DNA from: Anaerolineales bacterium
GTDB lineage: Bacteria; Chloroflexota; Anaerolineae; Anaerolineales; DRKV01
Assembly: GCA_034429745.1 (NCBI GenBank)
Contig: DAOUFY010000090.1
Location: 3,693 to 67,692 of the forward strand
DNA: 64,000 nucleotides
Direction of reading: 5' to 3'
The notes under the pieces: model-generated
The model's database searches: none
Told to the model about the DNA's origin: nothing
What the model saw: the letters and a program-made list of their open reading frames with translations, nothing else
In this document: positions 499-35,526 of the stretch, piece by piece
Layout: every line of letters starts with the position of its first letter
Position numbering within the stretch: the first letter of the stretch is position 1
Made by a program: the position numbers and the translations under genes

Positions 499-805
499 TC
501 GCAATAAAACCATTTCCTCCTTTATCAAAAGTTGCAAAGAAATGTCTTCAAACGTTTGCCGAAGTGGATCTTAATTATTTGTTTTCATTGGGGCATTAGG
601 CTTTAGTTCTTATTGCTATCACTTAACGATTGCTTTCGATCAACAAAACGTTCTGCTCCAATGCATGGGCTGGAGTACAGGTCAGGTGGTTGGATTTTTT
701 GAATGCCATGTTGAGAGCAAGATAGTCTCATCGGTGGTGCAGGGATCATCCCTTGAATTTTCGGAATATTTATAATGATGTGTAACTAAAAAAGAGGTGA
801 ACCCA

Positions 806-1468: not shown

Positions 1469-2499
1469 GCAAGAGTGGTATTCATTCTCAGACCAAACAA
1501 GTTGGTGCTGCCGTCATTGGTTTAGGAGTGGGCGAGCAGCATGCCCGTATGCTAGCTAGCTTGCCTTCTTGCGGACTGTTGTGGCTGTTTGATATTGATC
1601 ACTTGAAAGTGGAACGAGCCTTAACGTCCATTGGACAAGGTAAAGCTGCAGCAAGCTACGAACAGATTCTCAATGATGAGCGGGTAAATTTGGTAGTGAT
1701 TGCCAGTTATGACGATGCTCATTATGAACAAACAGTTGCAGCTTTAGAAGCAGGAAAACATGTCTTTGTTGAGAAACCGCTTTGCCGCAGCATAACAGAA
1801 CTGCAAGTGATCAAAGATAAATGGTTGCAGCAGAAAGGCAAGGTTCAGCTTACCTCAAATTTGGTTTTGCGCGCTGCCCCTTTATATCAATGGTTGGAAA
1901 AACAACTCGTTAAAGGGAATCTGGGTGTACCTTATGCGTTGGATGGTGAGTACCTTTATGGCAGATTGGAAAAGATTACCCGAGGCTGGCGCAAGGATGT
2001 GGCGGAATATTCTGTGATGTTTGGGGGAGGAATTCATTTGGTGGATTTGATGCTTTGGCTGTTAAAGGACAGACCACAAACCGTGTTTGCTAGAGGCAAT
2101 CGGATATGCACAGAAGGAACGGAGTTTCGTTACCCCGATTTTATAACGTCAGTGATGACTTTTCCTAACGGTTGTATTAGCCGAATAACCGCAAATTTTG
2201 GTTGTGTGCATCGTCATCAGCACGTATTACGCATTTATGGTACGCAAGCTACATTTATGTATGATGATGCCGGCGCGCGCTGGCATTTTACTCGCGACGA
2301 AAATGTTTCTGCTAGCCCTATCACTGCTTCACCTTTGCCGGCACATAAGGGCGAGCTGCTCCCCATTTTTATAGAAGCTATTATTGACCAACAAGATTTG
2401 ACAACTCATACTCAGCAAATGTTTGATGCCATCAGTGTTTGCGCAGCTAGTGATGAAGCTGTACGAACTCAACGTGTTGTGGAGGTTAAATACGTATGA
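1465..2499 (+). CDS. Gfo/Idh/MocA-family NAD(P)-dependent sugar oxidoreductase
   Basis: There is an N-terminal Rossmann motif (VGAAVIGLGVGEQH) and an EKPL motif (HVFVEKPLCRS). The TTG start overlaps the upstream stop (TTGA). Confidence 0.75.
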   Translation: MSKSGIHSQTKQVGAAVIGLGVGEQHARMLASLPSCGLLWLFDIDHLKVERALTSIGQGKAAASYEQILNDERVNLVVIASYDDAHYEQTVAALEAGKHVFVEKPLCRSITELQVIKDKWLQQKGKVQLTSNLVLRAAPLYQWLEKQLVKGNLGVPYALDGEYLYGRLEKITRGWRKDVAEYSVMFGGGIHLVDLMLWLLKDRPQTVFARGNRICTEGTEFRYPDFITSVMTFPNGCISRITANFGCVHRHQHVLRIYGTQATFMYDDAGARWHFTRDENVSASPITASPLPAHKGELLPIFIEAIIDQQDLTTHTQQMFDAISVCAASDEAVRTQRVVEVKYV

Positions 2500-3668
2500 A
2501 CGAAACGCGCCATATCCCTTTTGGCAAGCCTTGGATTACTGATGAAGACAGGCAGGCGGTAATGGAAGTTCTCCAAGGGTCGATTCTGACCCATGGACCT
2601 CAAGGCAAGTTATTTGAGGAAGAGTTTGCAGTTTTCATTGAAGGCGAGAACCAAACCACTGAAGCCTATTGTGTAACGGTCAGTTCAGGAATGGCTGCCT
2701 TGCATATGGCTTATTGGCAGTTAGGGATAGGAACCGGCGATGAGGTGATCGTAACGGCACAAACGCACAATGCTACAGCCCATGCTATAGAGATATTGGG
2801 TGCAAAGCCGGTATTTATAGACTGTCGTCTGGATACTGGAAATATTGATGTACAGCAGATCGAACAAGCCATAACGCCGCGCACAAAAGCTATAAGTCTG
2901 GTTCACTTTATCGGCATACCTTGTGAGATGGATGGTATTCTTGATATAGCCCAACGGCATGGGCTCAAAGTCATTGAGGATTGTGCTATTGCGCTTGGTG
3001 CCCGCTTTCGCGGTGTACATGTTGGCTTGTTGGGGGATGCAGGATGCTTTTCCTTTTACCCTGTTAAGCATATTACCAGCGGAGAGGGCGGCATGTTCAT
3101 TACAAGGCACGTCAACCTTGCTCAGCGGGTGGCGCATGGGCGCGCCTTTGGTGTGGATCGGACGCATGCGGAGCGAGCCATACCTGGCTTTTACGATGTT
3201 ACTGCCGTGGGCTTGAATTACCGGATGAGTGAAATGCAGGCGGCGTTGGGCAGGCAGCAGCTTAAGCGCATTGATGAAATTCTTGCCCGGCGCAAAGCAA
3301 ACTTCAGTTTATTGAAAACTTTATTAAGTGAACTTGATGAAATCACTATTCTGGATTCGGTAACTGAGCAGCAGCAAAGCAGCCATTATTGCCTTAGTCT
3401 GCTATTGAAAGGCGACTTGGGAAAGAAACGCAATGAAATAGTCTTGGAACTCAATCGGGCAGGGGTTGGAACAAGCATTTACTATCCTCACCCTGTTCCA
3501 TTGCTCACTTACTATCGTCAGAAGTATGGTTATCGCGAACAAGATTTTCCAAATGCGCTGACAATAAGTGATACCTCAATTGCTTTACCGGTAGCGCCCC
3601 ACGTAAGCGAAGAGGATATTCGGTATATGGCTGCGCACTTGAAACAAATTATTTGGGAGGTGAAATAA
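2496..3668 (+). CDS. DegT/DnrJ/EryC1/StrS-family PLP-dependent sugar aminotransferase (PseC/LegC-like)
   Basis: This is a full-length 390-aa protein. It starts IPFGKPWITDEDRQAVMEVLQGSILTHGP and has FSFYPVKHITSGEGGM around the PLP lysine. It overlaps the upstream gene by ATGA. Confidence 0.85.
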   Translation: MNETRHIPFGKPWITDEDRQAVMEVLQGSILTHGPQGKLFEEEFAVFIEGENQTTEAYCVTVSSGMAALHMAYWQLGIGTGDEVIVTAQTHNATAHAIEILGAKPVFIDCRLDTGNIDVQQIEQAITPRTKAISLVHFIGIPCEMDGILDIAQRHGLKVIEDCAIALGARFRGVHVGLLGDAGCFSFYPVKHITSGEGGMFITRHVNLAQRVAHGRAFGVDRTHAERAIPGFYDVTAVGLNYRMSEMQAALGRQQLKRIDEILARRKANFSLLKTLLSELDEITILDSVTEQQQSSHYCLSLLLKGDLGKKRNEIVLELNRAGVGTSIYYPHPVPLLTYYRQKYGYREQDFPNALTISDTSIALPVAPHVSEEDIRYMAAHLKQIIWEVK

Positions 3669-4714
3669 TGGCTTATCCCATTGCTGGAAGGAGAATTGCG
3701 CTGATTGGTGGTGCAGGATTTATTGGACATCATTTGGCATTGGCGTTAGCGAAAGCCAAGGCTGAAGTACATGTTGTTGATGGCTTAGAAGTGAATAATT
3801 TTCTTGCTTTTGCCGCAACAACGAAAGATATTCCCAGCCGCGATTTGTATTTACGGATCATCAATCAGCGGCTGGATTTGCTCAAGCAGGCCGGAGTTCC
3901 GCTGCATGTGCAGGACGCGCGCGATTATCACATGCTGAGCAAAGTGTTGGGGCAAATACGCCCTCAAGTGATCGTTCATCTTGCTGCGGTTGCTCATGCT
4001 GGCCGGGCAAATAAAGATCCTTACAGCACCTTTGATCACAGTTTGCGCACTTTAGAAAATGCTTTAGATAATGCGCAAAATAATGTGGAGCACTTTGTTT
4101 ATTTTTCTTCCAGCATGGTATATGGAGACTTTTTAACTCCAGAAGTTGATGAGGAACATCCTCTTAACCCGATTGGGATCTATGGTGCGTTGAAAGTAGC
4201 CGGGGAAAAAATGGTTATTGCTTACCATCAGGTTTATGGTCTGCCTTATACCATTGTGCGTCCTTCGGCATTGTACGGTCCACGATGTGTTAGTCGTCGT
4301 GTTGGGCAGATCTTTATTGAAAGCGCTCTCGAGGGAAATACTCTGCGAGTAGATGGGGATGGCAATGAAAAGCTCGATTTTACTTATATTGATGACTTAG
4401 TCAGTGGAATATTATTAATTCTTGAAAAAGAGGAAGCTCGCAATCAGATTTTTAACCTCACTTATGGGCAATCGCGCAGTATCAATGAGTTGGTAGCTAT
4501 TATTCAACAGCATTTTCACGAATCTAAAGTTACTTATGTAGAAAGAGATCGGCTGATGCCCCATCGCGGTACATTAAGCATTGAAAAAGCGAAACGGTTG
4601 TTGGGTTATGCGCCGCAAAATCCAATTGAGGTTGGTTTTCCCAAGTATATACAGTGGTATAAGGAACTTGATCCGAGCGGCCGGTTTTGGATAGACATTA
4701 AAATCAATCAATAA
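3668..4714 (+). CDS. NAD-dependent epimerase/dehydratase (extended SDR)
   Basis: It has a GGAGFIGHHL Rossmann motif and YGALK (YxxxK). GGGAGGTG precedes the ATG at 3668, and the ORF track start at 3653 is probably too early. Confidence 0.8.
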   Translation: MAYPIAGRRIALIGGAGFIGHHLALALAKAKAEVHVVDGLEVNNFLAFAATTKDIPSRDLYLRIINQRLDLLKQAGVPLHVQDARDYHMLSKVLGQIRPQVIVHLAAVAHAGRANKDPYSTFDHSLRTLENALDNAQNNVEHFVYFSSSMVYGDFLTPEVDEEHPLNPIGIYGALKVAGEKMVIAYHQVYGLPYTIVRPSALYGPRCVSRRVGQIFIESALEGNTLRVDGDGNEKLDFTYIDDLVSGILLILEKEEARNQIFNLTYGQSRSINELVAIIQQHFHESKVTYVERDRLMPHRGTLSIEKAKRLLGYAPQNPIEVGFPKYIQWYKELDPSGRFWIDIKINQ

Positions 4715-5469
4715 TGGTTATGAGTGAATTTCTTCAGAAAGATGAATGGTTGTCTGACGTGCTGGAGCGGCAGACATTTAAGCTCACTGTAAAGGAAGAG
4801 CTTCTTGCAGTTTGGCAAGGTTGGAAAAGCGAAATGCGGCTTAGTCAATGGCAGGTTAGTTTGCCAGCATATTCTTTTGTTTATACAAAAATACCAGCAC
4901 TTGCTGTGCATACTGCAAAAATACTGCAAGAGCTGGGTTTTTTCTTGGTGGATACCCAAGTAAGCTTTGAAAAAACCATTTCTGCTCAAAACCTCTCAGC
5001 TCCAGCAAGCGTAGAGGTGCGGTTGGCTCAGCCGAACGATGAACAAGGAGCATGCTCGCTAGCTGCTAGCGCGTTTCGTTATTCTCGCTTTCACCTAGAC
5101 CCTTTGATTCCTCGTCAGCTCGCTGACCGGGTGAAAGCGGAATGGGTAACAAACTATTTTCGCGGAAAACGCGGGGATGCTTTAGTCGTTGCTCTTTATG
5201 AAAAAAAGGTTGTTGGTTTTTTGCAGTTGCTGTTTAATGAAATTAATAAAGAGGTAGTGATTGATTTAATTGCAGTTGATGAAAGCCTGCGCGGTAAGGG
5301 TATTGCCGCGGCAATGATCTATTATGCAGAGCATAGTTTTTCATCTTATCAGCAAATGGTTGTAGGTACTCAAATTGCCAATACTCCATCGGTTCGGCTG
5401 TATGAAAAATTGGGTTTCCGGCTGCGTTCGGCGCATTATGTTTATCATTATCATCATCAATTACCGTGA
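4714..5469 (+). CDS. GNAT-family N-acetyltransferase (amino-sugar N-acetyltransferase, WecD/PseH-like role)
   Basis: The C-terminal GNAT core is VIDLIAVDESLRGKGIAAAMIYYAE...RLYEKLGF. The start overlaps the upstream stop (TAATG). Confidence 0.7.
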   Translation: MVMSEFLQKDEWLSDVLERQTFKLTVKEELLAVWQGWKSEMRLSQWQVSLPAYSFVYTKIPALAVHTAKILQELGFFLVDTQVSFEKTISAQNLSAPASVEVRLAQPNDEQGACSLAASAFRYSRFHLDPLIPRQLADRVKAEWVTNYFRGKRGDALVVALYEKKVVGFLQLLFNEINKEVVIDLIAVDESLRGKGIAAAMIYYAEHSFSSYQQMVVGTQIANTPSVRLYEKLGFRLRSAHYVYHYHHQLP

Positions 5470-5489
5470 GTTAGAGTTTTGGAGAATAG

Positions 5490-6500
5490 ATGGACAACAA
5501 TCACATAATTTCTTCCAATAAAACCATGATTGTGGCTGAAATCGGTAACAACCACGAAGGGGATTTTGCGTGTGCCCAACAGCTAGTGCGCGAAGCAGCA
5601 GCTTGCGGGGTGGACGCGGTGAAGTTCCAGGTGTTTAGAAGTGAGCATTATGTTAGCCAAAAAGATACAGCACGTTTCCAGCGTTTGAAGTCGTTTGAGT
5701 TATCCTATGCTCAATTTGAGCAGTTGGCGCAGTTAGCTCACTCATTGAACGTGCTGTTTATTGCAACACCATTTGATTTGGTGAGTGCAGAATTTTTAAT
5801 GCACACTGCAGATTATATAAAAGTAGCTTCTGGCGATAATAATTTTTATCCAATGCTGCGCAAGCTGACTGAGGCAGACAAGCCGTTGATTATCTCTACT
5901 GGTGTAAGCGACGAAGTGCAGGTAGGACAGACAGTGGATTTCATTAGGAGTTGTTGGCTAAAACAGGGTAAACATGGGAGCTTGGTTTTATTACATTGTG
6001 TAAGCGCATATCCCGCACCGCTTTCTCAAGTTAACCTGCGCTCTATTCCTTTCTTAGCCCAAAGATTTGGGCTACCCGTGGGCTATTCTGACCATACCTT
6101 AGGCATAGAAGCCTCTCTGCTGGCAGCCGCTTTGGGAGCTGTAATGATTGAAAAACATTTTACATTGGATAAAAATTTTTCGGAATTTCATGACCATCAG
6201 CTTTCAGCTGAACCAGCTGAGATGAGGCGGTTAGTCGAATGTGTTAGGGAACTGCCAAAAATGTTAGGTGAATTCAATAAAAAAATTCAACCCTGTGAAG
6301 AACCTATGCTGCCAGCTATTCGACGTTCTATCGCAGCCGCCAAAGACTTGGCCGTTGGGCAAAAAATCAGCGAAGAAGACCTAACTTGGATTAGGCCTGC
6401 TGTTGGTTTAGCGCCGGGGAGTGAGCACCTGATTGTAGGGAAAACCTTAAAGCGTTCCATAGGTTTTGGAGAATTAATACTCGAAAAAGATTGTGAGTGA
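5490..6500 (+). CDS. NeuB-family nonulosonic acid synthase (N-acetylneuraminate/pseudaminate/legionaminate synthase type) with a C-terminal SAF domain
   Basis: It has the NeuB signatures IVAEIGNNHEGDF..A..L...A...G.DAVKFQ and YSDHTLG. The C-terminal tail (RSIAAAKDLAVGQKISEEDLTWIRP) is SAF-like. Confidence 0.88.
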   Translation: MDNNHIISSNKTMIVAEIGNNHEGDFACAQQLVREAAACGVDAVKFQVFRSEHYVSQKDTARFQRLKSFELSYAQFEQLAQLAHSLNVLFIATPFDLVSAEFLMHTADYIKVASGDNNFYPMLRKLTEADKPLIISTGVSDEVQVGQTVDFIRSCWLKQGKHGSLVLLHCVSAYPAPLSQVNLRSIPFLAQRFGLPVGYSDHTLGIEASLLAAALGAVMIEKHFTLDKNFSEFHDHQLSAEPAEMRRLVECVRELPKMLGEFNKKIQPCEEPMLPAIRRSIAAAKDLAVGQKISEEDLTWIRPAVGLAPGSEHLIVGKTLKRSIGFGELILEKDCE

Positions 6501-8159: not shown

Positions 8160-9989
8160 ATGTGTGGAATTGCAGGATACATAGGTACGCGTCAGTTTTC
8201 TCATGAGGTAATTCAGCATTGTCTGCGTCTGATGCACCATCGCGGACCTGATCACGCGGCGTATTACACGACATCTTTTTCTCCGCAGTGCCACGTAACT
8301 TTGTTGAATACCCGCCTTAGTATTATTGATCTAGATGAGCGCTCTAATCCACCTTTCCGCATTGGCTCAAAAGTTATGGTCTATAACGGAGAATTGTATA
8401 ACTATCTAGAATTACGCAGCAAAATGGAAAAAGAAGTGGACTTTCGCACCCAATCCGATACTGAAGTGCTGCTGCAAACGATTATACAACATGGCTGGCA
8501 GGGTCTAGATGCTTGTGAAGGTATGTGGGCATTTGCTGTATTTGATGAAAAAGATGGTTCGCTTTTGTTGAGCCGTGATCGTTTTGGAGAAAAACCACTT
8601 TATTTGTATCGAGATGCCTCAGGAATGTATTTTGCTTCGGAGGTGAAATTCATCTTTGCTTTATTGGGGCATTCTCTGCCAATCAACACATCTCATCTTT
8701 ATCGCTATTTGATGAATGGCTACAAGGCATTAAATAAAGTGAAGGAAACTTTTTTTATAGGAATAGAGGAACTGCCGCCGGCATATGTCAGCTTGATTGA
8801 TGCTGAAGGCAACGAGAAACGTTGGCGGTATTGGCAGCCTTCATATCAGCAAGACGATAGCATGTCATTAGAGGAAGCTATTGATAAGGCAAAACAAGCC
8901 TTGCTGCGAGCGGTGCAGCTGCGTTTGCGAGCGGATGTACCATTAGCTTTTTGTTTGAGCGGAGGTATCGATTCAAATACGCTAATCAGTATTGCTAAGC
9001 GGGTATTTAATTATGATGTCCATGGGTTTACGATTGTGAACACGGATAAACGCTATGAAGAACAGGAAATGGTTCAGACTAGTGTACGAGAATTAGGCAT
9101 CCGGCATACTCAAATCTCAGCTGATACGCGGGAATTCTTGCCAAAGCTGCGGCAGCTGGTACGGCAGCATGATGGTCCGGTCTATACTATTAACTATTAT
9201 GCTCATTGGCTATTGATGCAAAGTGTTGCTGCCCACGGTTATAAAATTTCCTTAAGCGGTACAGGAGCAGATGAACTTTTCAGTGGTTATTATGACCATC
9301 ATCTGTTTTATCTTTATGAGGTCCGGAATAATCCTGTTCTTTTTCAACAATCACTAGAACTGTGGCGGAAAAATATTTTGCCTTATGTTCAAAATCCATT
9401 CCTTAAAAATCCTTTTGTGTTCATAGAGAATCCACAGTTTCGCGATCACATCTATTTGGATTCACAGGTTTTTGCTTCTTATTTGCATAAGCCTTGGCAG
9501 GAGACATTTGTGGAAGAAAAGTACAGCGAAAGCCTAATGCGCAATCGTATGTTGAATGAAGTATTTCATGAGGCGGTGCCGGTTTTGCTTCATCAGGATG
9601 ATCACAATGCTATGGCATGTTCTATAGAAAACCGATCGCCATTTTTGGACCGCCAATTGTTTGAGATAAGTATGACAATTCCTACCCGCTATTTGATTGG
9701 CGAGGGCAAGGCGAAGTACATCCTGCGGCAGGCTATGAGGGGGATTGTGCCTCAGGCTATTTTAGACAACCCGCGTAAAGTGGGTTTCAATGCACCGATT
9801 TTTTCTTACTTGGATGTAAAAGATGAGGCAGTAAAAAATGAGGTGCTTAGTCAAAGTCCGATTTATGATCATGTGAGGCGAGAGAAAATTCAGCTTTTGA
9901 TGGAAAAGCCGTATTTAGAGAATCATGAAAGCAAGTTTTTGTTTTCTTTTCTAACAAGCAAAATGTTTTTAGAGGAGTTAGGGCGATGA
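8160..9989 (+). CDS. asnB: Asparagine synthase (glutamine-hydrolysing) family amidotransferase
   Basis: It has an N-terminal nucleophile (MCGIAGY) and a PP-loop (SGGIDS, nt 8958-8975). At 609 aa, its size and layout fit AsnB-type enzymes. Confidence 0.85.
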   Translation: MCGIAGYIGTRQFSHEVIQHCLRLMHHRGPDHAAYYTTSFSPQCHVTLLNTRLSIIDLDERSNPPFRIGSKVMVYNGELYNYLELRSKMEKEVDFRTQSDTEVLLQTIIQHGWQGLDACEGMWAFAVFDEKDGSLLLSRDRFGEKPLYLYRDASGMYFASEVKFIFALLGHSLPINTSHLYRYLMNGYKALNKVKETFFIGIEELPPAYVSLIDAEGNEKRWRYWQPSYQQDDSMSLEEAIDKAKQALLRAVQLRLRADVPLAFCLSGGIDSNTLISIAKRVFNYDVHGFTIVNTDKRYEEQEMVQTSVRELGIRHTQISADTREFLPKLRQLVRQHDGPVYTINYYAHWLLMQSVAAHGYKISLSGTGADELFSGYYDHHLFYLYEVRNNPVLFQQSLELWRKNILPYVQNPFLKNPFVFIENPQFRDHIYLDSQVFASYLHKPWQETFVEEKYSESLMRNRMLNEVFHEAVPVLLHQDDHNAMACSIENRSPFLDRQLFEISMTIPTRYLIGEGKAKYILRQAMRGIVPQAILDNPRKVGFNAPIFSYLDVKDEAVKNEVLSQSPIYDHVRREKIQLLMEKPYLENHESKFLFSFLTSKMFLEELGR

Positions 9990-11104
9990 GGTACTGTCAA
10001 GAATGTATTTTGCCGGATACGCGCCCAAACTTGGTCCTGAATGAAAAGGGCGTATGCAATGCTTGTGAAACACATAAGCGGCGCGCGGCCATTGATTGGA
10101 ACGCCCGCGAGCAGGCTTTTCAAAAAGTGGTGGAACATGCCAAATCGCGCAGTAAAGGCTATGATTGCCTTATCCCCGTTAGTGGGGGTAAGGACAGCAC
10201 TTGGCAAGTAGTAAAATGTCTGGAATATGGATTAAATCCTCTGGCAGTAACTTGGAAACCTCCGGCAAGAACAGAGCTTGGCCGTAGGAATCTTGAAAAT
10301 TTAATTCAGTTAGGTGTTGACCATATAGATTATCAGGTGAACCCCAACGTGGAGCGTAAATTCCTCTATCAAGCCTTAGCTCGATTTGGTGCGCCGGGGC
10401 TCCCCATGCATATGGCTTTATTCAATATTCCGCTGAAACTCGCTGTTAAGTTTAATATCCCTTTGGTGGTATGGGGGGAAAATTCAGCTTTTGAATATGG
10501 AAGCCCGGATGAATCCTATATGGGCTTTCAATTGGACAGTCGCTGGCTGCGTCAGTTCGGTGTGATGCATGGGACAACAGCAAAGGATTGGATATCTGAA
10601 TCCCTAACGGAAAAAGAACTGACCCCTTATTTTGGACCTTCTGATGAAGAATTGGAAAAAGCGGGAGTATTGGCAATCTTTTTAGGGTATTATTTTCCAT
10701 GGGATCCTTATCAGACCTACCAAGTGGCAAAACAGCATGGTTTTCAAACGAGCAAAGAAGGAGCGAAAGTAGGATATTATGATTTCGCGGATTTGGATGA
10801 TGACTTTATCTCTGTTCATCATTACTTGAAATGGTATAAGTATGGATTTACGCGTAGTTTTGATAACCTTTCTTTGGAAATAAGGTTTGGTAGGTTGACG
10901 CGACAGCAGGCAATAGAGATATTGAGTGAACGAGGAGATGAAACTCCTTATGCAGATATAGACGTGTTTTGTCAATTTCTCGGAATTTCTGTTCGGCAAT
11001 TCTTTGAGCTTATTGAAAGGTTTCGCAATCTTGAGATCTGGAAAAAGAAAAATGGGAAGTGGGTTATTGAAGATTTTCTTATTCCTCATTGGCATTGGGA
11101 GTAG
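9986..11104 (+). CDS. N-acetyl sugar amidotransferase (PP-loop ATPase; PseA/WbuX-like)
   Basis: It has an N-terminal Cys-rich segment (CQECILPDTRPN...GVCNAC) and a PP-loop (SGGKDS, nt 10181-10198). It overlaps asnB by ATGA. Confidence 0.75.
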   Translation: MRYCQECILPDTRPNLVLNEKGVCNACETHKRRAAIDWNAREQAFQKVVEHAKSRSKGYDCLIPVSGGKDSTWQVVKCLEYGLNPLAVTWKPPARTELGRRNLENLIQLGVDHIDYQVNPNVERKFLYQALARFGAPGLPMHMALFNIPLKLAVKFNIPLVVWGENSAFEYGSPDESYMGFQLDSRWLRQFGVMHGTTAKDWISESLTEKELTPYFGPSDEELEKAGVLAIFLGYYFPWDPYQTYQVAKQHGFQTSKEGAKVGYYDFADLDDDFISVHHYLKWYKYGFTRSFDNLSLEIRFGRLTRQQAIEILSERGDETPYADIDVFCQFLGISVRQFFELIERFRNLEIWKKKNGKWVIEDFLIPHWHWE

Positions 11105-11107: not shown

Positions 11108-11452
11108 ATGAAAGTTGTGTGTAATGATCCGCCGCGTCGTTTTGTCGTTGGAAGAAATGCTTCTATCGAAATGAAGGATTGTGGGCAGATTCTGCTTGAA
11201 GCTGACGAACAAGTTACCTTTATTACCGCTCTAGGGGCTGAATACGATGTGGCGCGCAAGGAATGGGGGTTTTATGCCACGCCGTCAGTGAATGGCAGGT
11301 TAAAAGCTATGGGTTTTAAAACTGCCTTGGTAAAGAACCCACATCATCGCTATTATGTGTTATTGGTAGAGCAGGATAAAATTGAACAGTTTTTAGCCTA
11401 TCTTCAACAGGAGGAAAGTGAAATAGTTGAGTGGCTTGATGAACGATCATGA
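11108..11452 (+). CDS. Hypothetical small protein (114 aa), co-transcribed with the amidotransferases
   Basis: The ORF sits 3 nt after the upstream stop and overlaps the next gene. I recognise no family. Confidence 0.5.
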   Translation: MKVVCNDPPRRFVVGRNASIEMKDCGQILLEADEQVTFITALGAEYDVARKEWGFYATPSVNGRLKAMGFKTALVKNPHHRYYVLLVEQDKIEQFLAYLQQEESEIVEWLDERS

Positions 11453-14102
11453 AGTTTCAACGCGGAGATCATTTCGGAGCGAGTTGCTGCGGATTCATGC
11501 TCAAGCACCGCAGCAGCAGTGGCTTACACTGCTGCGATCTGCTGATGAGCATGAATATACCATAGAACAGCTTATCGCCCGGGTTGGGGATTATGCGGAG
11601 TTTTATTACAACGTAGGTATTCAGCCCAACGATTTGATCTTAATCATCTTAAAAGAATCACTGGATTTGTTTGCTTCATTTTTCGCAGCCATCATTATTG
11701 GGGCGTTGCCGGCTTACTATGCTTACCCTTCTCCCAAGCATTCGGTGGAATCATTTATTGAGTCAGTTGAAAACCTTATTCGCTATAACGAGATTAAGCT
11801 CGTCATTAGTTTCAAGGAAGTGATCCATGTCCTAAATCAAATAGACAGACAGCTATTCCCAAGCTGTATAGGATTTTATGATCATCACGCAGTGCAAGAA
11901 CAGGGAAACACAAATTTAGAGCGTTTTCCAATACCCGCCAATGAGGCTTTTTTACAGTTCTCCTCCGGTACGACAGGGGCAAAAAAAGGAGTAAAGATAT
12001 CCATTGACTCTTTATTTAACCAAATTGAGGCTTACAGCCCTTATGTCAATTATTCTTCGCAAAGCAAAGTTGTCTCTTGGCTGCCCCATTATCATGATAT
12101 GGGTTTGATCGCTTGCATGCTGATGCCTTTTTTAAAGTCGGTGCCAATTGTGATGATGTCGCCATTTGAATGGGTAAGCAACCCAAAAATGCTGTTTGAA
12201 GCAATAACGAAAGTTCGCGGCACCCATGTATGGCTGCCTAATTTTGCTTTAGGACACTTAACCAACACGATACCTGAGAGTGAGTTGGGAGTTTATGACT
12301 TAAGCTGCCTAAGTCAGTTGGTGTGCTGCTCAGAACCACTGCTTTATGAGACAGTAAAGGCTTTTTTACGGCGCTTTAAGCCTTGCGGTATTAAGGAGGA
12401 ACAGTTTTACAATTGCTACGCTATGGCAGAAAACACCTTTGCTGTAACTTCGACTAGACAAGGCGGCTTATCTTTCCTTCAGGTGGACGCGCAGGCGCTG
12501 CAGCATGATCGCATTGTGCCGGTTTTTGAAGGAGGAAGAACGATTGCCAGCGCAGGTTTTCCATTGGATAATGTTCAGCTGAGGATTGTTGATTCCAGTG
12601 GTTCCGATCTGGAAGAAAATGCAGTCGGCGAGGTGTGGTTGAAAAGCAATTGTATGCTTGAAGGTTATCATAATAATCCGCTTGAGACTCAATCTGCCTT
12701 TGCTGATGGCTGGTACAAAACCGGAGATTTAGGGTTTATCCATCATGGGGAGTTGTATATCACTGGCCGCAAGAAAGACATGATGATCATCGGAGGTGTG
12801 AACATATACCCCCAAGATGTGGAGCTGATATTAAATGCAGAATCGCCCTTAATACCTGGCCGCAATGTGGTGTTTGGGGTGAACGATGAGCGGCTTGGCA
12901 CAGAACGTGTGGTCGTGCTGGCAGAGGTAAAGGAGGAGGATAAAGAAAAAGTTGACTCATTTTCCATAACACAAAAGATATTTCAAGCTTTAGATATTTC
13001 AGTTTCTGAATTTGTTTTGCTTCCGCCGATGACTTTGAAAAAAGGTACAGCTGGTAAAATTTCTCGATATTTGAATAAAAAGCTCTATCTGCAGGGAATG
13101 TTTGACCATTATTGTAACAAAGAAAAGGCTGCTGCAACAATAAAAGATGAACAAAACGAATTAAGCGAATTGGTAAGCAGGGTGATATCTTACAGCCAGA
13201 AGCCACCGCTTGAAGCAAATACCCCCTTATTTGTCTCAGGGCTGATCGACTCTTTTGGGTTTGCCGAATTGCTACTGCTGTTAGAAAAGCACTATCAGGT
13301 TACCATTCCAGATTCAATCAAGCAAGTAAAGTATTTCCAAACTCTGGCAGAGATAAGCAAAACGCTCGAAGCGCTGAAAAAGAAACAATTGCCTTCACAT
13401 GAGGAAGATGAGTCATTAATAAAAGCAAGGCAAGAGAGTTTTTTACGGCTTAGTCATCCTTCTTCAAAACGCAGGGCGGATACAACCATGTTTGAGTGGT
13501 GGATTATCCATTTTCCGCTGCGCAACACGCCATTTTATCGCTGGTTATTGAGGATGAGTGGGGTTGTTTTAGGAGAGCGAGTTGTTTTTTTAGGAAGATT
13601 TCGAGTGAAAATGCGCGGACAACGCGGCAGCATTGTGATTGGCAATGATGTCGTGTTGGGTGATGGAGTAGATTTGCGCACTAGGGAAAATGGTAAAATC
13701 ATTTTATCGGATAACGTTTATTTAGATAGCAATGTGCGCATCGTAGCAGCAAGAGAAGGAATGGTGCAAATAGGAACTGATACGGAAATTGGATTTAATA
13801 CTGTTATTAACTCTGGCGGTATTACTCGCATTGGTAAGTTTTGCATGATTGCCGGTAATGTGAATATCAATTCCTCTAGTCATGGGGTTAAACGGGATAC
13901 ATACATAAAAGAACAACCTCATTCACATGGCATTGTCGAGATTGGAGATGACGTATGGATTGGTGCTGGAGTTTCAATTGTTATGAATGCTAAGATAGGT
14001 GAGGGGGCGGTGATCTCTTCCAACTCTTTGGTCAGTGGGGAAATACCGCCTTTTGGGATTTGTGCCGGCGTGCCGGCTAAAGTAATTCGATATCGATCAT
14101 AG
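11427..14102 (+). CDS. Tri-domain fusion: acyl-AMP ligase (FAAL/AMP-binding) - acyl carrier protein - left-handed beta-helix (hexapeptide) acyltransferase
   Basis: The AMP-binding core is SSGTTGAKKGV (nt 11961-11990), with YKTGDLG and GRKKDMMIIGGVNIYP. The carrier-domain motif GLIDSFGF puts a Ser codon at 13251-13253. The C-terminal ~190 aa carry hexapeptide repeats (IGNDVVLGDGVDL...IGDDVWIGAGVSI). The start is TTG 11427 or ATG 11439. Confidence 0.8.
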   Translation: MSGLMNDHEVSTRRSFRSELLRIHAQAPQQQWLTLLRSADEHEYTIEQLIARVGDYAEFYYNVGIQPNDLILIILKESLDLFASFFAAIIIGALPAYYAYPSPKHSVESFIESVENLIRYNEIKLVISFKEVIHVLNQIDRQLFPSCIGFYDHHAVQEQGNTNLERFPIPANEAFLQFSSGTTGAKKGVKISIDSLFNQIEAYSPYVNYSSQSKVVSWLPHYHDMGLIACMLMPFLKSVPIVMMSPFEWVSNPKMLFEAITKVRGTHVWLPNFALGHLTNTIPESELGVYDLSCLSQLVCCSEPLLYETVKAFLRRFKPCGIKEEQFYNCYAMAENTFAVTSTRQGGLSFLQVDAQALQHDRIVPVFEGGRTIASAGFPLDNVQLRIVDSSGSDLEENAVGEVWLKSNCMLEGYHNNPLETQSAFADGWYKTGDLGFIHHGELYITGRKKDMMIIGGVNIYPQDVELILNAESPLIPGRNVVFGVNDERLGTERVVVLAEVKEEDKEKVDSFSITQKIFQALDISVSEFVLLPPMTLKKGTAGKISRYLNKKLYLQGMFDHYCNKEKAAATIKDEQNELSELVSRVISYSQKPPLEANTPLFVSGLIDSFGFAELLLLLEKHYQVTIPDSIKQVKYFQTLAEISKTLEALKKKQLPSHEEDESLIKARQESFLRLSHPSSKRRADTTMFEWWIIHFPLRNTPFYRWLLRMSGVVLGERVVFLGRFRVKMRGQRGSIVIGNDVVLGDGVDLRTRENGKIILSDNVYLDSNVRIVAAREGMVQIGTDTEIGFNTVINSGGITRIGKFCMIAGNVNINSSSHGVKRDTYIKEQPHSHGIVEIGDDVWIGAGVSIVMNAKIGEGAVISSNSLVSGEIPPFGICAGVPAKVIRYRS

Positions 14103-14113: not shown

Positions 14114-16360
14114 ATGCACAAAAAAATTGTTGCTTTTGCACCTTACGGCAATTGGTTGGTTCATCATCAAGTAGATGCAGTGCTAGGTAAAGCTTTAGAA
14201 CTTCGCGGGGCGTCATTTTTTACAATACTATGTGATGGTGTGTTTGAAAATTGCCCCAATGCCGGCATACCTTATCAGATTGAAGCGTGCCGCAGTTGCG
14301 CGAACGCCGGTCGGCAATGGTTTGCTAAATTTGGTTTGAATACTATTCCACTTAGCAGTTTAATTACTCAGCGGGATGTAGAAGAGTGTCAGGAATGGGC
14401 TTTGCAGCTTCGGGAAGAGAATTTCCTGCAGGCAACTTTTGAAGGCGGCGAATTAGGAAAATGGGTTTATGCCGGGGTGTGCTCCTATTTTTTCATGGGC
14501 AAACCGCCTCTTTCTGACCCGCGAGTGGCATTGGCTTATCGTGTATTTTTGTATAATGCGGCTTTGCTTCAAAGGGCGATACAACGCGGCTTAGACGTTT
14601 TACAGCCCCAGCATGCAGTTTGTTATGCAGGTACGCTAGCCGCTTACCGAGTCTTTTTAGAAACTTGCCGTCAGCGAGGTATTCCGGTTCTTGTACATGA
14701 ACGCGGTCCATTGGATGATACCTTTATTTTTGCGGATAGCGATTATTATGGACGCATGGCGGGCAGAGAAGAATCGCTTAAAGCTTGGGAAAGCGTACCT
14801 CTGAGTGATGAAGAATATCAAGCAGCAAAATGGCATATTCTTGAACGAGAGTTAGGGAAAAATTTGAATCGCGACCATTTTTATCGCATGCCTCCTGTGA
14901 AGGGCAGCTTGCGTTACGCTCTGAGAATTCCATACGATGCTTCCATTATCGCAGTATTTACCCAAAGTGATTGGGAATTAGGTATGGCGCGCGGTTATGT
15001 TGATAGGTTGTTTGATCAAGCCATAGATGGAGTAAAGCAAATTTTAGATAATCTAATAGCTAATAATTCAGCAGATATCTATTGGGTTTTTCGGCTCCAT
15101 CCTAATATGATAGGTCCTACATGGACAGATTTTGTTTTCTTAGAGCAAATGATCGCTCAAGGGCTGCTTATGCCTCATAACGTGCGCGTGATTATGCCAA
15201 CCGAACGAATAACTTCATATCAATTAATATGGGAAGCTGACGCGGCTCTTTCCTTTGGCAGCACTGTTGGAGCAGAGGCATTGGTGCGCGGCTTGTCGGT
15301 TGCTAGCAGTGTGGATAATCTAACTGTAAAGATTAATGGTGTGGAAAAAATCCATTCTATTGAAGATTACTCCAACGCTTTATCCAGAGTGATGCAGAAA
15401 ACCAAACAGCTTTCGTTAGAAGATATGCGATCAGCCTACCGTCGTTTTTATTATTACTTCTTTAGGCTAAGTTACCGGTTTAAGTCTTTTGGCATTCGCG
15501 AGTTTTATCAGCCGGAACTTCGTTTTACCAGCCTAGAGGAGTTAAAAGAAGGTAAGGACGAAAAATTGGACGTTCTCTGCAACCATATTATGAATAGTCA
15601 GCCGCTGTATCCATTTCCAAATCAAGCAGAACAAGAGCGTTCTGACGAAGAAGAGACGCAGTTCTTGATGCAAGTGATTGAAGACATAAAGACACGCCGA
15701 GCAGAAGCCAAAGAACAGGATTTTTTGATGAAGGATGTGAAAGAGCCTTTAATAAGCACCGTATGTATGCTGCGGGATCGATCATCACAAACTGTTGAGG
15801 AGGTAGAAAACACGCGTTTTCAGCGCAGCTTGCAACGTTCCCGCCATAAAACCATAGAGGTGCAGACTCTGCGTTTATCTGCAACGGTAACTGCACAGCA
15901 GTTCCTTCAACAATTGATAGAGACAGCCAAAAATGCTCATGGTGAGTATATCTATGTTGGGGCAGCCGAAGTGCAGTTGGATGAAGCTTTGTTTTCCACG
16001 GCGATAGACTACTTAGAGGAAGAGGAGCACAAGTTGTTGTCAGCAGTGATGACGGGAGCTTGGATTCTTACTGCAGAAGGGCATTTTTCCGGCGACATTT
16101 TTACTTTGCGGAAAGAACCGAGAGACTATGTGGAAGCTCAGCAATGGCTTCCTCTGCTGAGAGATCCACTCTATTTGCTTTCTTGTTTCGTATGGCGAAG
16201 AGAAGCTTTTATTGATTTATTCTCTTCTCTTCAAGTAAGCACAACTCTGCTTAGCGGGATCTCTTCAGCATTGTTTGCTGATATAACAGAAAAAGCAGCA
16301 AAAGGTTTGATGGATAAACTAAAAGTACCATTTATTACTTTTTATCTTCCTGGCACATAA
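14114..16360 (+). CDS. Hypothetical 748-aa protein; possible GT-B-like keto-acid-sugar (capsule-synthesis/sialyl-type) transferase with an acidic C-terminal extension
   Basis: This is a long ORF in the operon with no confident family match by eye. An RLHPN motif (nt 15091-15105) resembles the HP motif of CMP-keto-acid sugar transferases. The assignment is speculative. Confidence 0.4.
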   Translation: MHKKIVAFAPYGNWLVHHQVDAVLGKALELRGASFFTILCDGVFENCPNAGIPYQIEACRSCANAGRQWFAKFGLNTIPLSSLITQRDVEECQEWALQLREENFLQATFEGGELGKWVYAGVCSYFFMGKPPLSDPRVALAYRVFLYNAALLQRAIQRGLDVLQPQHAVCYAGTLAAYRVFLETCRQRGIPVLVHERGPLDDTFIFADSDYYGRMAGREESLKAWESVPLSDEEYQAAKWHILERELGKNLNRDHFYRMPPVKGSLRYALRIPYDASIIAVFTQSDWELGMARGYVDRLFDQAIDGVKQILDNLIANNSADIYWVFRLHPNMIGPTWTDFVFLEQMIAQGLLMPHNVRVIMPTERITSYQLIWEADAALSFGSTVGAEALVRGLSVASSVDNLTVKINGVEKIHSIEDYSNALSRVMQKTKQLSLEDMRSAYRRFYYYFFRLSYRFKSFGIREFYQPELRFTSLEELKEGKDEKLDVLCNHIMNSQPLYPFPNQAEQERSDEEETQFLMQVIEDIKTRRAEAKEQDFLMKDVKEPLISTVCMLRDRSSQTVEEVENTRFQRSLQRSRHKTIEVQTLRLSATVTAQQFLQQLIETAKNAHGEYIYVGAAEVQLDEALFSTAIDYLEEEEHKLLSAVMTGAWILTAEGHFSGDIFTLRKEPRDYVEAQQWLPLLRDPLYLLSCFVWRREAFIDLFSSLQVSTTLLSGISSALFADITEKAAKGLMDKLKVPFITFYLPGT

Positions 16361-35299: not shown

Positions 35300-35324
35300 G
35301 TCTTATCCAAGTTGTAGTTCAGCA

Positions 35325-35358
35325 TATAGGCGCAATTTTCTTTTGCGCCTATATTTTT
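35325..35358 (+). terminator. Rho-independent terminator after flagellin 1
   Basis: The stem TATAGGCGC (35325-35333) pairs with GCGCCTATA (35345-35353) and is followed by TTTTT. Confidence 0.75.
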
Positions 35359-35442
35359 ACTTAAAAAACCATAAAAAAATGATGAATTTGCCGAAGAGTG
35401 CTTAATGTTTCCGTAAAGTTTCGTTATAATAATAAAAGAGTT

Positions 35443-35469
35443 TAAAGAAAATTTGATTTTTGGCGATAA
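35443..35469 (+). promoter_or_regulatory. Sigma-28 (FliA)-type promoter of flagellin gene 2
   Basis: TAAA (35443-35446), a 15-nt spacer, then GGCGATAA (35462-35469). Confidence 0.75.
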
Positions 35470-35520: not shown

Positions 35521-35526
35521 TATAGT

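What the first reader, a model, noticed from the sequence alone, without database searches (positions are those of the whole stretch)
11427..14102. Self-contained acylation module: acyl-AMP ligase, carrier protein and hexapeptide acyltransferase in one 891-aa protein
The AMP-binding signatures are SSGTTGAKKGV, YKTGDLG and GRKKDMMIIGGVNIYP. They are followed by a carrier-domain motif, GLIDSFGF (Ser codon 13251-13253), and then a left-handed beta-helix acyltransferase.

Established knowledge: FAAL-type ligases load acids onto a phosphopantetheinyl carrier, and LbH enzymes N- or O-acylate sugars. Examples include PglD and WlbB, which act on amino sugars.

Fusing all three implies that a non-acetyl acyl group is activated, tethered and transferred onto the amino sugar without coenzyme A. 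This would explain why a de-N-acetylase is also encoded. I do not recognise this fusion as described in nonulosonate pathways.
Basis: partly seen in the sequence, partly recalled or inferred. Interest (0 to 1): 0.72.

Follow-up and report, generated by a model that had tools for sequence, protein, structure and literature searches.

The report
Ligase–carrier–acyltransferase fusion in a flagellar sugar cluster
One 887-891-residue protein joins an acid-activating enzyme, a carrier domain and a sugar acyltransferase; it belongs to an unstudied family found in many phyla inside clusters for sialic-acid-like sugars, and probably decorates that sugar with an acyl group without using coenzyme A.

Summary
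[quoted passage not shown] Every quoted motif and the Ser609 codon sit at the stated coordinates.

More than 100 full-length homologues (34-57% identity) occur in several phyla, all without a functional name. Ser609 and the FAAL hallmark residues are invariant in 48/48 aligned sequences; His819 is kept in 47/48.

The gene lies in a NeuB-type nonulosonate cluster, about 20 kb upstream of two flagellin genes. The fusion recurs beside the same AsnB-like, WbuX-like and 114-aa genes.

- The LbH domain belongs with LacA/NeuO/WbbJ/WcaF-type O-acetyltransferases, not PglD/WlbB N-acetyltransferases.
- A standalone ~200-aa LbH orthologue fills the same slot in other loci, and one locus has a carrier-LbH didomain.
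- The deacetylase is absent from the other loci examined.

Best reading (confidence 0.5): a CoA-independent module in which FAAL loads the carrier and LbH passes the acyl group to the nonulosonate glycan, more likely onto a hydroxyl. The acid and the acceptor are unknown. I rate it a new variant of a known kind.

The parts
11427..14102 (+). Whole gene for the FAAL-carrier-LbH tri-domain protein. It is 891 aa from TTG 11427, or 887 aa from ATG 11439 as called in public assemblies.
11541..13106 (+). FAAL (fatty-acyl-AMP ligase) domain, residues ~39-560. Core motifs are A3 SSGTTGAKKGV, A5 YAMAENT, A7 YKTGDLG, A8 GRKKDMMIIGG and A10 GTAGKISR (Lys544). FAAL hallmarks are P101, W218, P220, M225, F273, the helix region 246-252 and the insertion ~338-375.
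   Evidence: hallmark residues taken from PMC8460268
13149..13376 (+). Carrier (PP-binding) domain, residues ~575-650. The predicted phosphopantetheine attachment site is Ser609 (codon 13251-13253) in GLIDSFGF.
   Evidence: Pfam 21.8 bits against GA 20.8. Ser609 48/48 and Asp608 47/48. Foldseek matches to PltL, PigG, DltC and VinL with TMt 0.6-0.75 and prob 1.0.
13377..13526 (+). Poorly conserved linker, residues ~651-700, with 17% mean pairwise identity.
   Evidence: low pLDDT in the model
13527..14099 (+). Left-handed beta-helix acyltransferase domain, residues ~701-891. It carries the family motif DLR(T/N)RENGKI, Ser817 and His819 (codon 13881-13883, aligned to LacA His115), and His834.
8160..9989 (+). 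AsnB-like glutamine-dependent amidotransferase. A homologue lies near the fusion in all 7 homologous loci.
9986..11104 (+). WbuX-family N-acetyl sugar amidotransferase (TIGR03573, 343 bits, above the cut-off of 203).
11108..11452 (+). Conserved 114-aa protein of unknown fold. It partners the AsnB/WbuX pair and also occurs without the fusion.
14114..16360 (+). 748-aa protein with no family match, 11 nt downstream of the fusion. An unannotated protein of ~540-750 aa lies next to the LbH gene in most related loci.
797..6500 (+). Core nonulosonate pathway genes: cytidylyltransferase, Gfo/Idh/MocA oxidoreductase, PseC-like aminotransferase, dehydratase/epimerase, GNAT and a NeuB-family synthase.
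34397..36402 (+). Two flagellin genes, followed by fliD, flaG and fliS. They are the likely glycosylation target of the cluster.

Best explanation
The protein is a self-contained, CoA-independent acyl-transfer module that decorates the nonulosonic-acid glycan made by the surrounding cluster. That glycan is probably destined for the flagellins encoded about 20 kb downstream.

Proposed steps:
1. The FAAL domain adenylates a free carboxylic acid. Its identity is unknown; a fatty or other non-acetyl acid is expected from the FAAL class.
2. The acyl group is passed to the phosphopantetheine arm on Ser609 of the in-cis carrier domain.
3. A flexible linker of about 50 residues delivers the acyl-thioester to the C-terminal LbH domain.
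4. The LbH domain uses His819 as general base and transfers the acyl group to the sugar. A hydroxyl is the more likely acceptor, because the domain groups with O-acetyltransferases. An amine is not excluded.

What is shown: the domain identities, conservation of the catalytic residues, and the genomic association.

What is inferred: that the carrier-bound acyl group is the LbH donor, which acid is used, which acceptor atom is acylated, and whether the enzyme acts on the nucleotide sugar or on the finished glycan.
For: 1. All three domains carry intact, conserved catalytic residues: Lys544 48/48, Ser609 48/48, His819 47/48. Mean pairwise identity is 46% (FAAL), 32% (carrier) and 48% (LbH), against 17% for the linker.

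2. The ligase has the features that make FAALs reject CoA and use holo-carrier proteins. The EcFAAL residues P107, W224, P226, M231 and F279 map to P101, W218, P220, M225 and F273. The helix region and the insertion are collinear with EcFAAL and LpFAAL.

3. The only fused downstream domain is an acyltransferase. LbH enzymes that take acyl-ACP donors exist (LpxA and LpxD, from established knowledge). Both appear among the weaker matches.

4. Context is specific. Generic FAAL relatives in L001-L080 lack nonulosonate neighbours. All 7 loci with the fusion or its carrier-LbH part have an AsnB-like gene. Six of 7 have a WbuX-like gene and 6 of 7 the 114-aa gene. NeuB-pathway genes are present in four of them.

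5. A standalone ~200-aa LbH orthologue (37-38% identity, same RENGK motif and catalytic His) fills the same slot in L089, L090 and L096. L087 has a carrier-LbH didomain without FAAL, in a locus that also encodes a homologue of amino acid-[carrier protein] ligase. This suggests the LbH and its acceptor stay constant while the donor-loading part is modular.

6. The best full-length LbH alignment includes NeuO, a sialic-acid O-acetyltransferase (2.8e-11, 163 residues).
Against: - No biochemical data exist for any member.
- The PP-binding score is only just above threshold. The structural model of the C-terminal 307 residues is mediocre (pLDDT 71), and its LbH part found no Foldseek match.
- Standalone orthologues of the LbH domain have no carrier domain attached and so may use acyl-CoA. 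The fused domain might therefore still use acetyl-CoA.
- LacA/WbbJ-type LbH enzymes are not known to accept carrier-bound donors.
- No phosphopantetheinyl transferase lies in the window.
- The fusion is absent from otherwise similar clusters such as L172, so it is an optional add-on whose product cannot be read from the core pathway.
- The aa:CP-ligase homologue in L087 scores below its family cut-off, lies 6 kb away and is on the opposite strand.
Confidence: 0.5

Rival explanations
1. The LbH domain N-acylates an amino group of the diamino sugar with the carrier-bound acyl group, after the neighbouring polysaccharide deacetylase has removed an N-acetyl group.
For: - The window encodes a Polysacc_deac_1 protein at 7241-8152, three genes upstream.
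- Non-acetyl N-acyl groups on Pse/Leg-type sugars are well known (own knowledge).
- Some LbH enzymes near this clade N-acetylate. DapH and ApmA score E 2e-9 to 2e-8.
- L084 shows no recognisable N-acetyltransferase in its cluster.
Against: - tblastn finds the deacetylase in no other locus with the fusion or its LbH orthologue.
- The LbH domain fails the NeuD/PglB/VioB model (44.8 against 160.8 bits). PglD and WlbB are not among its 60 best PDB matches.
- Its best matches are O-acetyltransferases.
- A GNAT or formyltransferase is present in most loci where the core genes are visible.
Confidence: 0.17
2. Two coupled but separate activities. The LbH domain is an ordinary acetyl-CoA-dependent acetyltransferase, acting either on the sugar or on the carrier-tethered intermediate. 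The FAAL-carrier half supplies an acyl group to some other transferase in the cluster.
For: - Close standalone LbH orthologues of ~200 aa have no carrier attached and sit in the same slot.
- All characterised members of the LacA/MAT/NeuO/Vat clade use acyl-CoA (own knowledge).
- Carrier-tethered substrates are tailored by acetyltransferases in other pathways, for example the SbzI-SbzG complex 8ZT4 listed.
Against: - No other obvious acyl-carrier-dependent transferase is conserved beside the fusion.
- The carrier-LbH pair stays fused even where the FAAL is missing (L087).
- In other FAAL-carrier fusions the downstream domain is described as the consumer of the acyl-carrier, for example PKS, NRPS and lysophospholipid acyltransferase fusions (PMC8460268).
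Confidence: 0.22
3. The protein belongs to lipid, lipopeptide or polyketide metabolism and only happens to lie next to sugar genes.
For: FAALs are classically associated with PKS/NRPS clusters (PMC8460268). The closest standalone FAALs (55% identity, P0069 and P0098) lie in unrelated contexts.
Against: - No PKS or NRPS gene is in the window or in L081-L087.
- Linkage to AsnB, WbuX and NeuB-pathway genes is conserved in loci named as Deltaproteobacteria and Thermoleophilaceae MAGs, in a locus whose protein is named from a Phycisphaerae MAG, and in this Anaerolineae window.
- Genes from 797 to 16360 are packed with gaps of -26 to +23 nt.
Confidence: 0.05
4. The LbH domain is a non-catalytic or gamma-carbonic-anhydrase-like beta-helix that only trimerises the FAAL-carrier unit.
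For: Gamma-carbonic-anhydrase-family chains appear among the PDB matches (9QEV, 7.7e-10).
Against: - Acetyltransferases score better in both PDB and NCBIfam searches.
- The loop carrying the catalytic His aligns to LacA His115 and is conserved 47/48, together with Ser817 48/48.
- The gamma-CA NCBIfam model scores 40.5 against a cut-off of 250.
Confidence: 0.03

Closest known systems
Fatty acyl-AMP ligases with cognate or fused carrier proteins (EcFAAL 3PBK, L. pneumophila FAAL 3KXW, FadD32/Pks13)
   Same: The adenylation core is the same, as are the FAAL-specific insertion and the CoA-excluding residues. A carrier domain follows directly, so loading of a phosphopantetheine arm instead of CoA is expected.
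   Different: The described downstream partners are PKS, NRPS, lysophospholipid acyltransferase or reductase modules (PMC8460268, PMC12820801). Here the partner is a hexapeptide sugar-type acyltransferase, in a glycan cluster with no PKS or NRPS.
LacA / maltose O-acetyltransferase / polysialic-acid O-acetyltransferases NeuO and OatWY / WbbJ-WcaF polysaccharide O-acetyltransferases
   Same: These are the best sequence matches of the C-terminal domain. The catalytic His aligns and the extended loop is present. NeuO and OatWY also act on a nonulosonic acid.
   Different: All of these are free-standing and use acetyl-CoA. The domain here scores far below every curated family cut-off, for example WbbJ at 63.5 against 243 bits. 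It is also tethered to its own loading machinery.
LpxA and LpxD (lipid A pathway)
   Same: They are LbH acyltransferases that take the acyl group from acyl-ACP and put it on a nucleotide sugar, at O (LpxA) or N (LpxD). This shows the fold can use carrier-bound donors.
   Different: The similarity is distant (E 1e-4 to 6e-6). They use the housekeeping ACP in trans, loaded by fatty-acid synthesis rather than by a dedicated ligase.
DltABCD (D-alanylation of teichoic acids) and AlmEFG (glycine on Vibrio lipid A)
   Same: The logic is the same. A dedicated adenylating enzyme loads a dedicated carrier protein, and a transferase esterifies a surface glycoconjugate without CoA. DltC is among the structural matches of the carrier domain.
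   Different: The components are separate proteins. The transferases are of the MBOAT/DltD or LpxL type, not LbH. The substrates are amino acids, and the targets are not nonulosonates.
Carrier-protein and AMP-dependent-synthetase genes in flagellin glycosylation islands (Aeromonas group II islands, PMC7874193; a similar gene set in the Campylobacter jejuni flagellar glycosylation locus, from my own recollection)
   Same: An ACP gene and an AMP-dependent synthetase gene sit among pseudaminic-acid genes near flagellins. The Aeromonas authors suggest a lipid-carrying sugar.
   Different: The genes are separate and come with luxC/luxE and a ketoreductase. No LbH fusion is described, and function is untested there as well.
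   Same: They share the LbH fold and act on amino sugars.
   Different: The model TIGR03570 is not met. These proteins are not among the best 60 PDB matches. Helices of the linker precede the LbH part rather than a recognisable N-terminal nucleotide-binding domain (domain feature from own knowledge; helices).

Membership tests
FAAL (fatty acyl-AMP ligase) clade of ANL adenylating enzymes | ANL core motifs, including the A10 catalytic lysine | tested here: met
   A3, A5, A7, A8 and A10 are present. K187, E335, D434, R448 and K544 are invariant in 48/48 sequences. Pfam AMP-binding scores 3e-45.
FAAL (fatty acyl-AMP ligase) clade of ANL adenylating enzymes | FAAL-specific insertion in the N-terminal domain | tested here: met
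   Residues ~338-375 align collinearly with the insertion region of LpFAAL 3KXW and EcFAAL 3PBK, with only gaps of 1-5 residues. The A5-to-A6 spacing is 66 residues, which is also the family median. Acyl-CoA ligase models match in two separate stretches that restart at about residue 371-376.
FAAL (fatty acyl-AMP ligase) clade of ANL adenylating enzymes | Blocked canonical CoA pocket and proline-lined alternative pocket (EcFAAL W224, M231, F279, P107, P226, helix T252-R258; PMC8460268) | tested here: met
   These map through the 3PBK alignment to W218, M225, F273, P101, P220 and the ungapped region 246-252. The five named residues are invariant in 48/48 sequences.
FAAL (fatty acyl-AMP ligase) clade of ANL adenylating enzymes | Makes acyl-AMP and transfers it to a holo-carrier protein but not to CoA | not testable with these tools
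   This needs enzyme assays. Note that no curated NCBIfam FAAL model reaches its cut-off; the best scores 295.9 against 600 bits.
Phosphopantetheine-binding carrier domain (PF00550) | Profile match above the gathering score, with the (D/N)S attachment motif at the start of helix II | tested here: met
   The score is 21.8 bits against 20.8, which is marginal. Ser609 is 48/48 and Asp608 is 47/48. In the model a helix starts directly after the Ser.
Phosphopantetheine-binding carrier domain (PF00550) | Four-helix carrier fold | tested here: inconclusive
   Foldseek places PltL, PigG, DltC, VinL and ACPs on top, with TMt 0.6-0.75, rmsd 1.5-2.4 and prob 1.0. However, E-values are 0.08-0.7, and the modelled fragment started at residue 585, so helix I was cut off.
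Phosphopantetheine-binding carrier domain (PF00550) | Ser is phosphopantetheinylated by a PPTase | not testable with these tools
   No PF01648-type PPTase is found among the window ORFs of 120 aa or more that were scanned. The enzyme may be encoded elsewhere in the genome.
LbH acyltransferases of the LacA/MAT/NeuO/WbbJ/WcaF type | Hexapeptide repeats, plus a loop carrying the catalytic histidine | tested here: met
   Pfam Hexapep scores 4.8e-10. LacA 1KQA scores 5.7e-12 with query His819 opposite His115, and NeuO 3JQY scores 2.8e-11. His819 is 47/48 and Ser817 is 48/48.
LbH acyltransferases of the LacA/MAT/NeuO/WbbJ/WcaF type | Reaches the curated score of a named family (WbbJ, WcaF, LacA, MAT, Vat) | tested here: not met
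   Scores are WbbJ 63.5 against 243, WcaF family 59.3 against 192, and LacA 52.7 against 347. The domain resembles this clade but is not a member of any named equivalog.
LbH acyltransferases of the LacA/MAT/NeuO/WbbJ/WcaF type | Left-handed beta-helix structure, trimeric, with the donor site between subunits | tested here: inconclusive
   The model shows regular short strands with pLDDT 75-89 over the repeat region, but Foldseek returned no LbH match. The oligomeric state cannot be tested here.
NeuD/PglB/VioB sugar N-acetyltransferases (PglD, WlbB) | Match to TIGR03570 | tested here: not met
   The score is 44.8 bits against a cut-off of 160.8. PglD and WlbB are absent from the 60 best PDB matches, and VioB scores only 9e-6. 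Helices of the linker precede the repeats.
Gamma-carbonic-anhydrase-like LbH proteins | Match to a gamma-CA model and a zinc-binding histidine triad | tested here: not met
   The NCBIfam gamma-CA model scores 40.5 against 250 bits. PDB gamma-CA chains score below the acetyltransferases. The zinc ligands were not checked residue by residue.

The most novel reading that the evidence does not exclude
This is a previously unrecognised class of glycan acyltransferase. An LbH sugar O-acyltransferase has captured its own FAAL and carrier domains. In one related locus the loader may instead be an aminoacyl-carrier ligase. Bacteria from several phyla could then esterify flagellin- or surface-linked nonulosonic acids with fatty or other unusual acyl groups independently of the CoA pool. 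That would give lipid-bearing or otherwise non-acetyl-acylated sialic-acid-like sugars.
Probability: 0.35. Interest if true: 0.72.

Novelty: new variant of a known kind. Interest (0 to 1): 0.57.

Why it matters
Nonulosonic acids on flagella, capsules and lipopolysaccharides carry many acyl groups that shape motility, immune recognition and phage attachment. For most non-acetyl substituents the enzymes are unknown.

A ligase-carrier-acyltransferase fusion would be a compact route for attaching such groups, and it could be recognised from genome sequence alone. It would also extend FAAL biology beyond polyketide and lipopeptide assembly. The LacA/NeuO-type beta-helix enzymes would gain a carrier-bound donor.

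Standalone, didomain and tridomain forms occupy the same genomic slot. That gives a natural experiment for testing how a donor switch evolves.

Tried and rejected
- **Genome-contig scan with the full-length alignment.** It returned mainly generic standalone FAALs at 29-41% identity. These served only as a negative control for context.
- **Metagenome-contig scan with the carrier-LbH alignment.** It did yield L087, L089, L090 and L096.
- **Foldseek of the C-terminal model.** It confirmed only the carrier part. The LbH part matched nothing useful, so clade assignment rests on sequence searches.
- **P0251 and similar 300-480-aa 'didomain' hits.** P0251 is a fragment at a contig end, so such hits cannot be counted as true didomains. 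Only L087 is internal to its contig.
- **Exact look-up of the 891-aa translation.** It failed because public gene calls start at ATG 11439.
- **Literature searches.** Searches for the fusion, and for carrier-dependent acylation of nonulosonates, found no description. The Campylobacter locus-tag search was unproductive.
- **Sequence searches of the 748-aa and 114-aa neighbours against PDB, Pfam and NCBIfam.** They gave nothing.
- **Identity of the acid.** I considered predicting it from the FAAL pocket. No coordinates or specificity predictor were available, so it was left open.
- **MbtH-like partner.** I considered the small ORF as an MbtH-like partner of the ligase and rejected this. It has no Pfam match, and it travels with WbuX/AsnB even where the fusion is absent.


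Full report

Yes. One search lists ORF 11427..14102 on the + strand as 891 aa from a TTG start. All four quoted motifs are at the stated residues and nucleotides, and Ser609 is codon TCT at 13251-13253. Public gene calls for the identical sequence begin at ATG 11439, giving 887 aa (P0241). Either start overlaps the preceding 114-aa ORF.

Pfam finds three domains:
- AMP-binding, residues 39-415, E 3e-45
- PP-binding, residues 578-645, 21.8 bits against a gathering score of 20.8
- Hexapep, residues 837-871, E 4.8e-10

**2. The ligase domain is FAAL-type.**

The best NCBIfam models are FAAL models (4.8e-88), although none reaches its curated cut-off. The best solved structures are all FAAL-type: L. 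pneumophila FAAL 3KXW (1.9e-65), a PKS loading domain 7R7E-G, E. coli FAAL 3PBK, McyG and FadD32.

The eLife 2021 study (PMC8460268) names the features that make FAALs reject CoA. They are the bulky residues W224, M231 and F279, the prolines P107 and P226, a FAAL-specific helix T252-R258 (E. coli numbering), and the FAAL-specific insertion.

In the residue-level alignment to 3PBK the SEQRES index is one less than the paper's numbering. The features map to W218, M225, F273, P101 and P220, and to an ungapped stretch 246-252. All five residues are invariant in a 48-sequence family alignment.

The segment between motifs A5 and A6 is 66 residues and aligns collinearly with the insertion of the two bacterial FAAL structures. 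The A10 lysine (K544) is invariant.

**3. The carrier domain.**

The Pfam score is marginal. However, the attachment Ser is invariant (48/48) and the preceding Asp is 47/48.

An AlphaFold2 model of residues 585-891 (11 sequences, mean pLDDT 71) has pLDDT 73-92 over the carrier part. Foldseek against the PDB returns carrier proteins as the top matches: PltL, PigG, DltC, VinL and several ACPs, with TMt 0.6-0.75, rmsd 1.5-2.4 Å and probability 1.0. The E-values are weak (0.08 and above), because a 60-residue domain sits in a 307-residue query and helix I was cut off. I count the fold as likely rather than proven.

**4. The LbH domain is an acyltransferase, but not of the cited type.**

Searched alone, the C-terminal 233 residues match these structures best:
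- galactoside O-acetyltransferase LacA (5.7e-12)
- polysialic-acid O-acetyltransferase NeuO (2.8e-11, over 163 residues)
- Vat streptogramin acetyltransferases
- maltose O-acetyltransferases

His819 lies opposite the LacA catalytic His115. It is conserved in 47/48 sequences, and Ser817 in 48/48.

NCBIfam ranks a phosphonate-cluster hexapeptide transferase, WbbJ, the WcaF family, LacA and Vat first. The NeuD/PglB/VioB model, which covers PglD, scores 44.8 against a cut-off of 160.8. PglD and WlbB are not among the 60 best PDB matches. Gamma-carbonic-anhydrase-like proteins score lower than the acetyltransferases and fail their model (40.5 against 250 bits).

The refutation criterion 'carbonic-anhydrase-like' is therefore not met. 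The resemblance is to O-acetyltransferases, one of which acts on a nonulosonic acid. No named family cut-off is reached, so I do not file the domain under any of them.

**5. The surroundings.**

Genes from 797 to 16360 lie on one strand with gaps of -26 to +23 nt. In order they encode:
1. a cytidylyltransferase
2. a Gfo/Idh/MocA oxidoreductase
3. a PseC-like aminotransferase
4. a dehydratase/epimerase
5. a GNAT
6. a NeuB-family synthase
7. a formyltransferase-like protein
8. a polysaccharide deacetylase
9. an AsnB-like amidotransferase
10. a WbuX-family N-acetyl sugar amidotransferase (343 bits, above its cut-off)
11. a 114-aa protein
12. the fusion
13. a 748-aa protein with no family match

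Glycosyltransferases, methyltransferases and a B12-binding radical SAM protein follow. At 34397-39406 there are two flagellins, then FliD, FlaG and FliS. The region therefore looks like a flagellin glycosylation island built around a diamino-type nonulosonate of undefined stereochemistry.

The threonyl-tRNA synthetase in the window is 73-78% identical to those of Anaerolineales/Chloroflexota MAGs. No phosphopantetheinyl transferase was found among the window ORFs of 120 aa or more that were scanned.

**6. The family and its context elsewhere.**

The homology search found more than 100 full-length proteins with the same architecture at 34-57% identity. Named sources include Deltaproteobacteria, Vicinamibacterales, Verrucomicrobia, Dependentiae, Phycisphaerae and Thermoleophilaceae MAGs. 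They are named only 'AMP-binding protein' or by generic labels such as 'fatty-acyl-CoA synthase' or 'acyl-CoA synthetase/acetyltransferase-like enzyme'.

A profile of the carrier-LbH part, run against 1.84 billion cluster representatives, gives 155 hits at E ≤ 1e-30. About 25 of them are 850-950-aa fusions.

Gene neighbourhoods of five homologues (L081-L086) repeat the association. I ran tblastn with the window's proteins against all fetched loci:
- All 7 loci with the fusion or its carrier-LbH part have an AsnB-like gene.
- Six have a WbuX-like gene and six have the 114-aa gene.
- NeuB, DegT, Gfo and epimerase genes appear in four of them (L081, L083, L084, L086).
- The 80 loci with generic FAAL relatives (29-41% identity) almost never have these genes.

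The nearest standalone FAALs (549 aa, ~55% identity) lie in unrelated contexts. One full-length-type hit, L043, has the FAAL and LbH parts as adjacent separate ORFs beside a dTDP-sugar epimerase. The pair is therefore not strictly confined to nonulosonate clusters.

**7. Modularity, the most informative result.**

The AsnB-WbuX-114-aa trio also occurs without the fusion (L171, L172). The fusion is therefore an optional add-on.

In L090 the order is AsnB, WbuX, small protein, then a standalone 209-aa LbH, then an unannotated 606-aa protein. That is the window's arrangement minus the FAAL-carrier part. L089 and L096 are similar. These standalone LbH proteins are 37-38% identical to the fused domain. 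They share its DLRNRENGKI motif and the catalytic His.

L087 has an internal 322-aa carrier-LbH didomain after AsnB, WbuX and a methyltransferase, with no FAAL. The same locus encodes a class-II aaRS-like protein whose best model is amino acid-[acyl-carrier-protein] ligase (168 bits, below the cut-off of 357). It lies 6 kb away on the other strand.

The simplest reading is that the LbH enzyme and its acceptor are the constant element of this sub-module. The donor side varies: nothing (presumably acyl-CoA), a carrier served in trans, or a carrier plus FAAL in cis.

**8. Mechanism.**

I propose that FAAL adenylates a free acid and loads Ser609-Ppant. The loaded arm then swings on the ~50-residue linker (17% pairwise identity) to the LbH active site. 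There His819 activates a sugar hydroxyl, or less likely an amine, for acyl transfer.

- Shown: domain identities, catalytic residues, conservation and context.
- Inferred by analogy: donor channelling. The analogies are FAAL-carrier-X fusions, LpxA/LpxD as ACP-dependent LbH enzymes, and the Dlt and Alm systems (established knowledge).
- Unknown: the acid, the acceptor atom, and whether the enzyme acts before or after glycan transfer.

The main rival is that the LbH domain still uses acetyl-CoA, as its standalone orthologues may.

**9.

The architecture and the CoA-independent logic are reasonable. The N-acylation and deacetylase story is not supported:
- tblastn detects the deacetylase in no other locus carrying the fusion or its LbH orthologue.
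- Most loci where the core genes are visible already have a GNAT or formyltransferase.
- The LbH clade points to O-acylation.

**10. Novelty.**

Two FAAL surveys list fusions to PKS, NRPS, lysophospholipid acyltransferase and reductase modules, but no hexapeptide transferase. Full-text searches for the domain trio, or for carrier-dependent acylation of nonulosonates, found nothing relevant.

The nearest published idea concerns separate ACP and AMP-dependent-synthetase genes in Aeromonas flagellin glycosylation islands. The authors there suggest a lipid-bearing sugar, untested (PMC7874193).

Every part is of a known kind and the logic has precedents. I therefore rate it a new variant of a known kind: an uncharacterised family spread across several phyla, with a specific and testable predicted role.

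Noticed in passing
window 11108-11452 (+): A 114-aa protein lies directly upstream of the fusion. It has 749 homologues, all unnamed or 'hypothetical', and no Pfam, NCBIfam or PDB sequence match. AlphaFold2 with 39 sequences gives pLDDT 94 and pTM 0.80 (mostly beta strands plus one long helix). Foldseek finds no PDB match with E below 0.9. It travels with the WbuX/AsnB pair even where the fusion is absent.
   Followed up: yes
window 34397-39406 (+): Two ~300-aa flagellin genes, then fliD, flaG and fliS, lie about 20 kb downstream of the sugar cluster. The ThrRS at 41166-42962 places the window in Anaerolineae/Chloroflexota, so this looks like a flagellin glycosylation island in a Chloroflexota MAG.
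   Followed up: partly
window 14114-16360 (+); L081 14511-16346; L083 12607-14457; L085 12898-14529; L086 18755-20578; L089 13744-15486; L090 3714-5534; L096 1317-3098: An unannotated protein of ~540-750 aa lies next to the LbH gene, fused or standalone, in most loci. By BLASTP these fall into at least three groups that do not match each other. One carries the new Pfam family PF27859 (LIC12162). They might be the nonulosonate transferases, but nothing identifies them.
   Followed up: partly
L087 2657-3880 (-) and 9890-10858 (+): A homologue of amino acid-[acyl-carrier-protein] ligase (SerRS-like, 168 bits, below cut-off) shares a locus with a standalone carrier-LbH didomain and AsnB/WbuX genes. 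This hints at aminoacyl rather than fatty-acyl decoration in that organism.
   Followed up: partly
L081 6713-8533 and 12710-14524; L089 7055-8731 and 10831-12687: Two AsnB-like paralogues are present in the module in some loci. In L081 they flank the fusion together with the WbuX-like and small genes. In L089 they flank the standalone LbH, WbuX and small genes. Their substrate is unknown; candidates are ammonia supply to WbuX or amidation of a carboxylate.
   Followed up: no
window 18590-20593 (+): A B12-binding radical SAM protein (667 aa) sits inside the glycan cluster. The call starts at a GTG that overlaps the preceding gene by 50 nt. Its best models are C- and P-methyltransferases and BchE, all far below cut-off. 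It might methylate an unactivated carbon of the glycan or its acyl group.
   Followed up: no
window 22437-28667 (+): A 2076-aa protein combines an FkbM-type methyltransferase, TPR repeats and several GT2 glycosyltransferase domains. Three stretches match the Glycos_transf_2 model, and further GT2-type families also match.
   Followed up: no
window 10-498 (+): The C-terminal part of a second DegT-type aminotransferase is cut by the window start. The sugar cluster therefore extends upstream of the window.
   Followed up: no
L087 4460-5833; L096 4482-5777: A DUF4910/DUF2172/HTH_47 (aminopeptidase-like) protein recurs in two loci that carry the LbH sub-module.
   Followed up: no
L167, L168 (P0098, P0069): Standalone 549-aa FAALs about 55% identical to the fused ligase domain lie in unrelated contexts. 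In L167 the gene follows a GNAT gene and a 78-aa ORF that could be a carrier protein.
   Followed up: no
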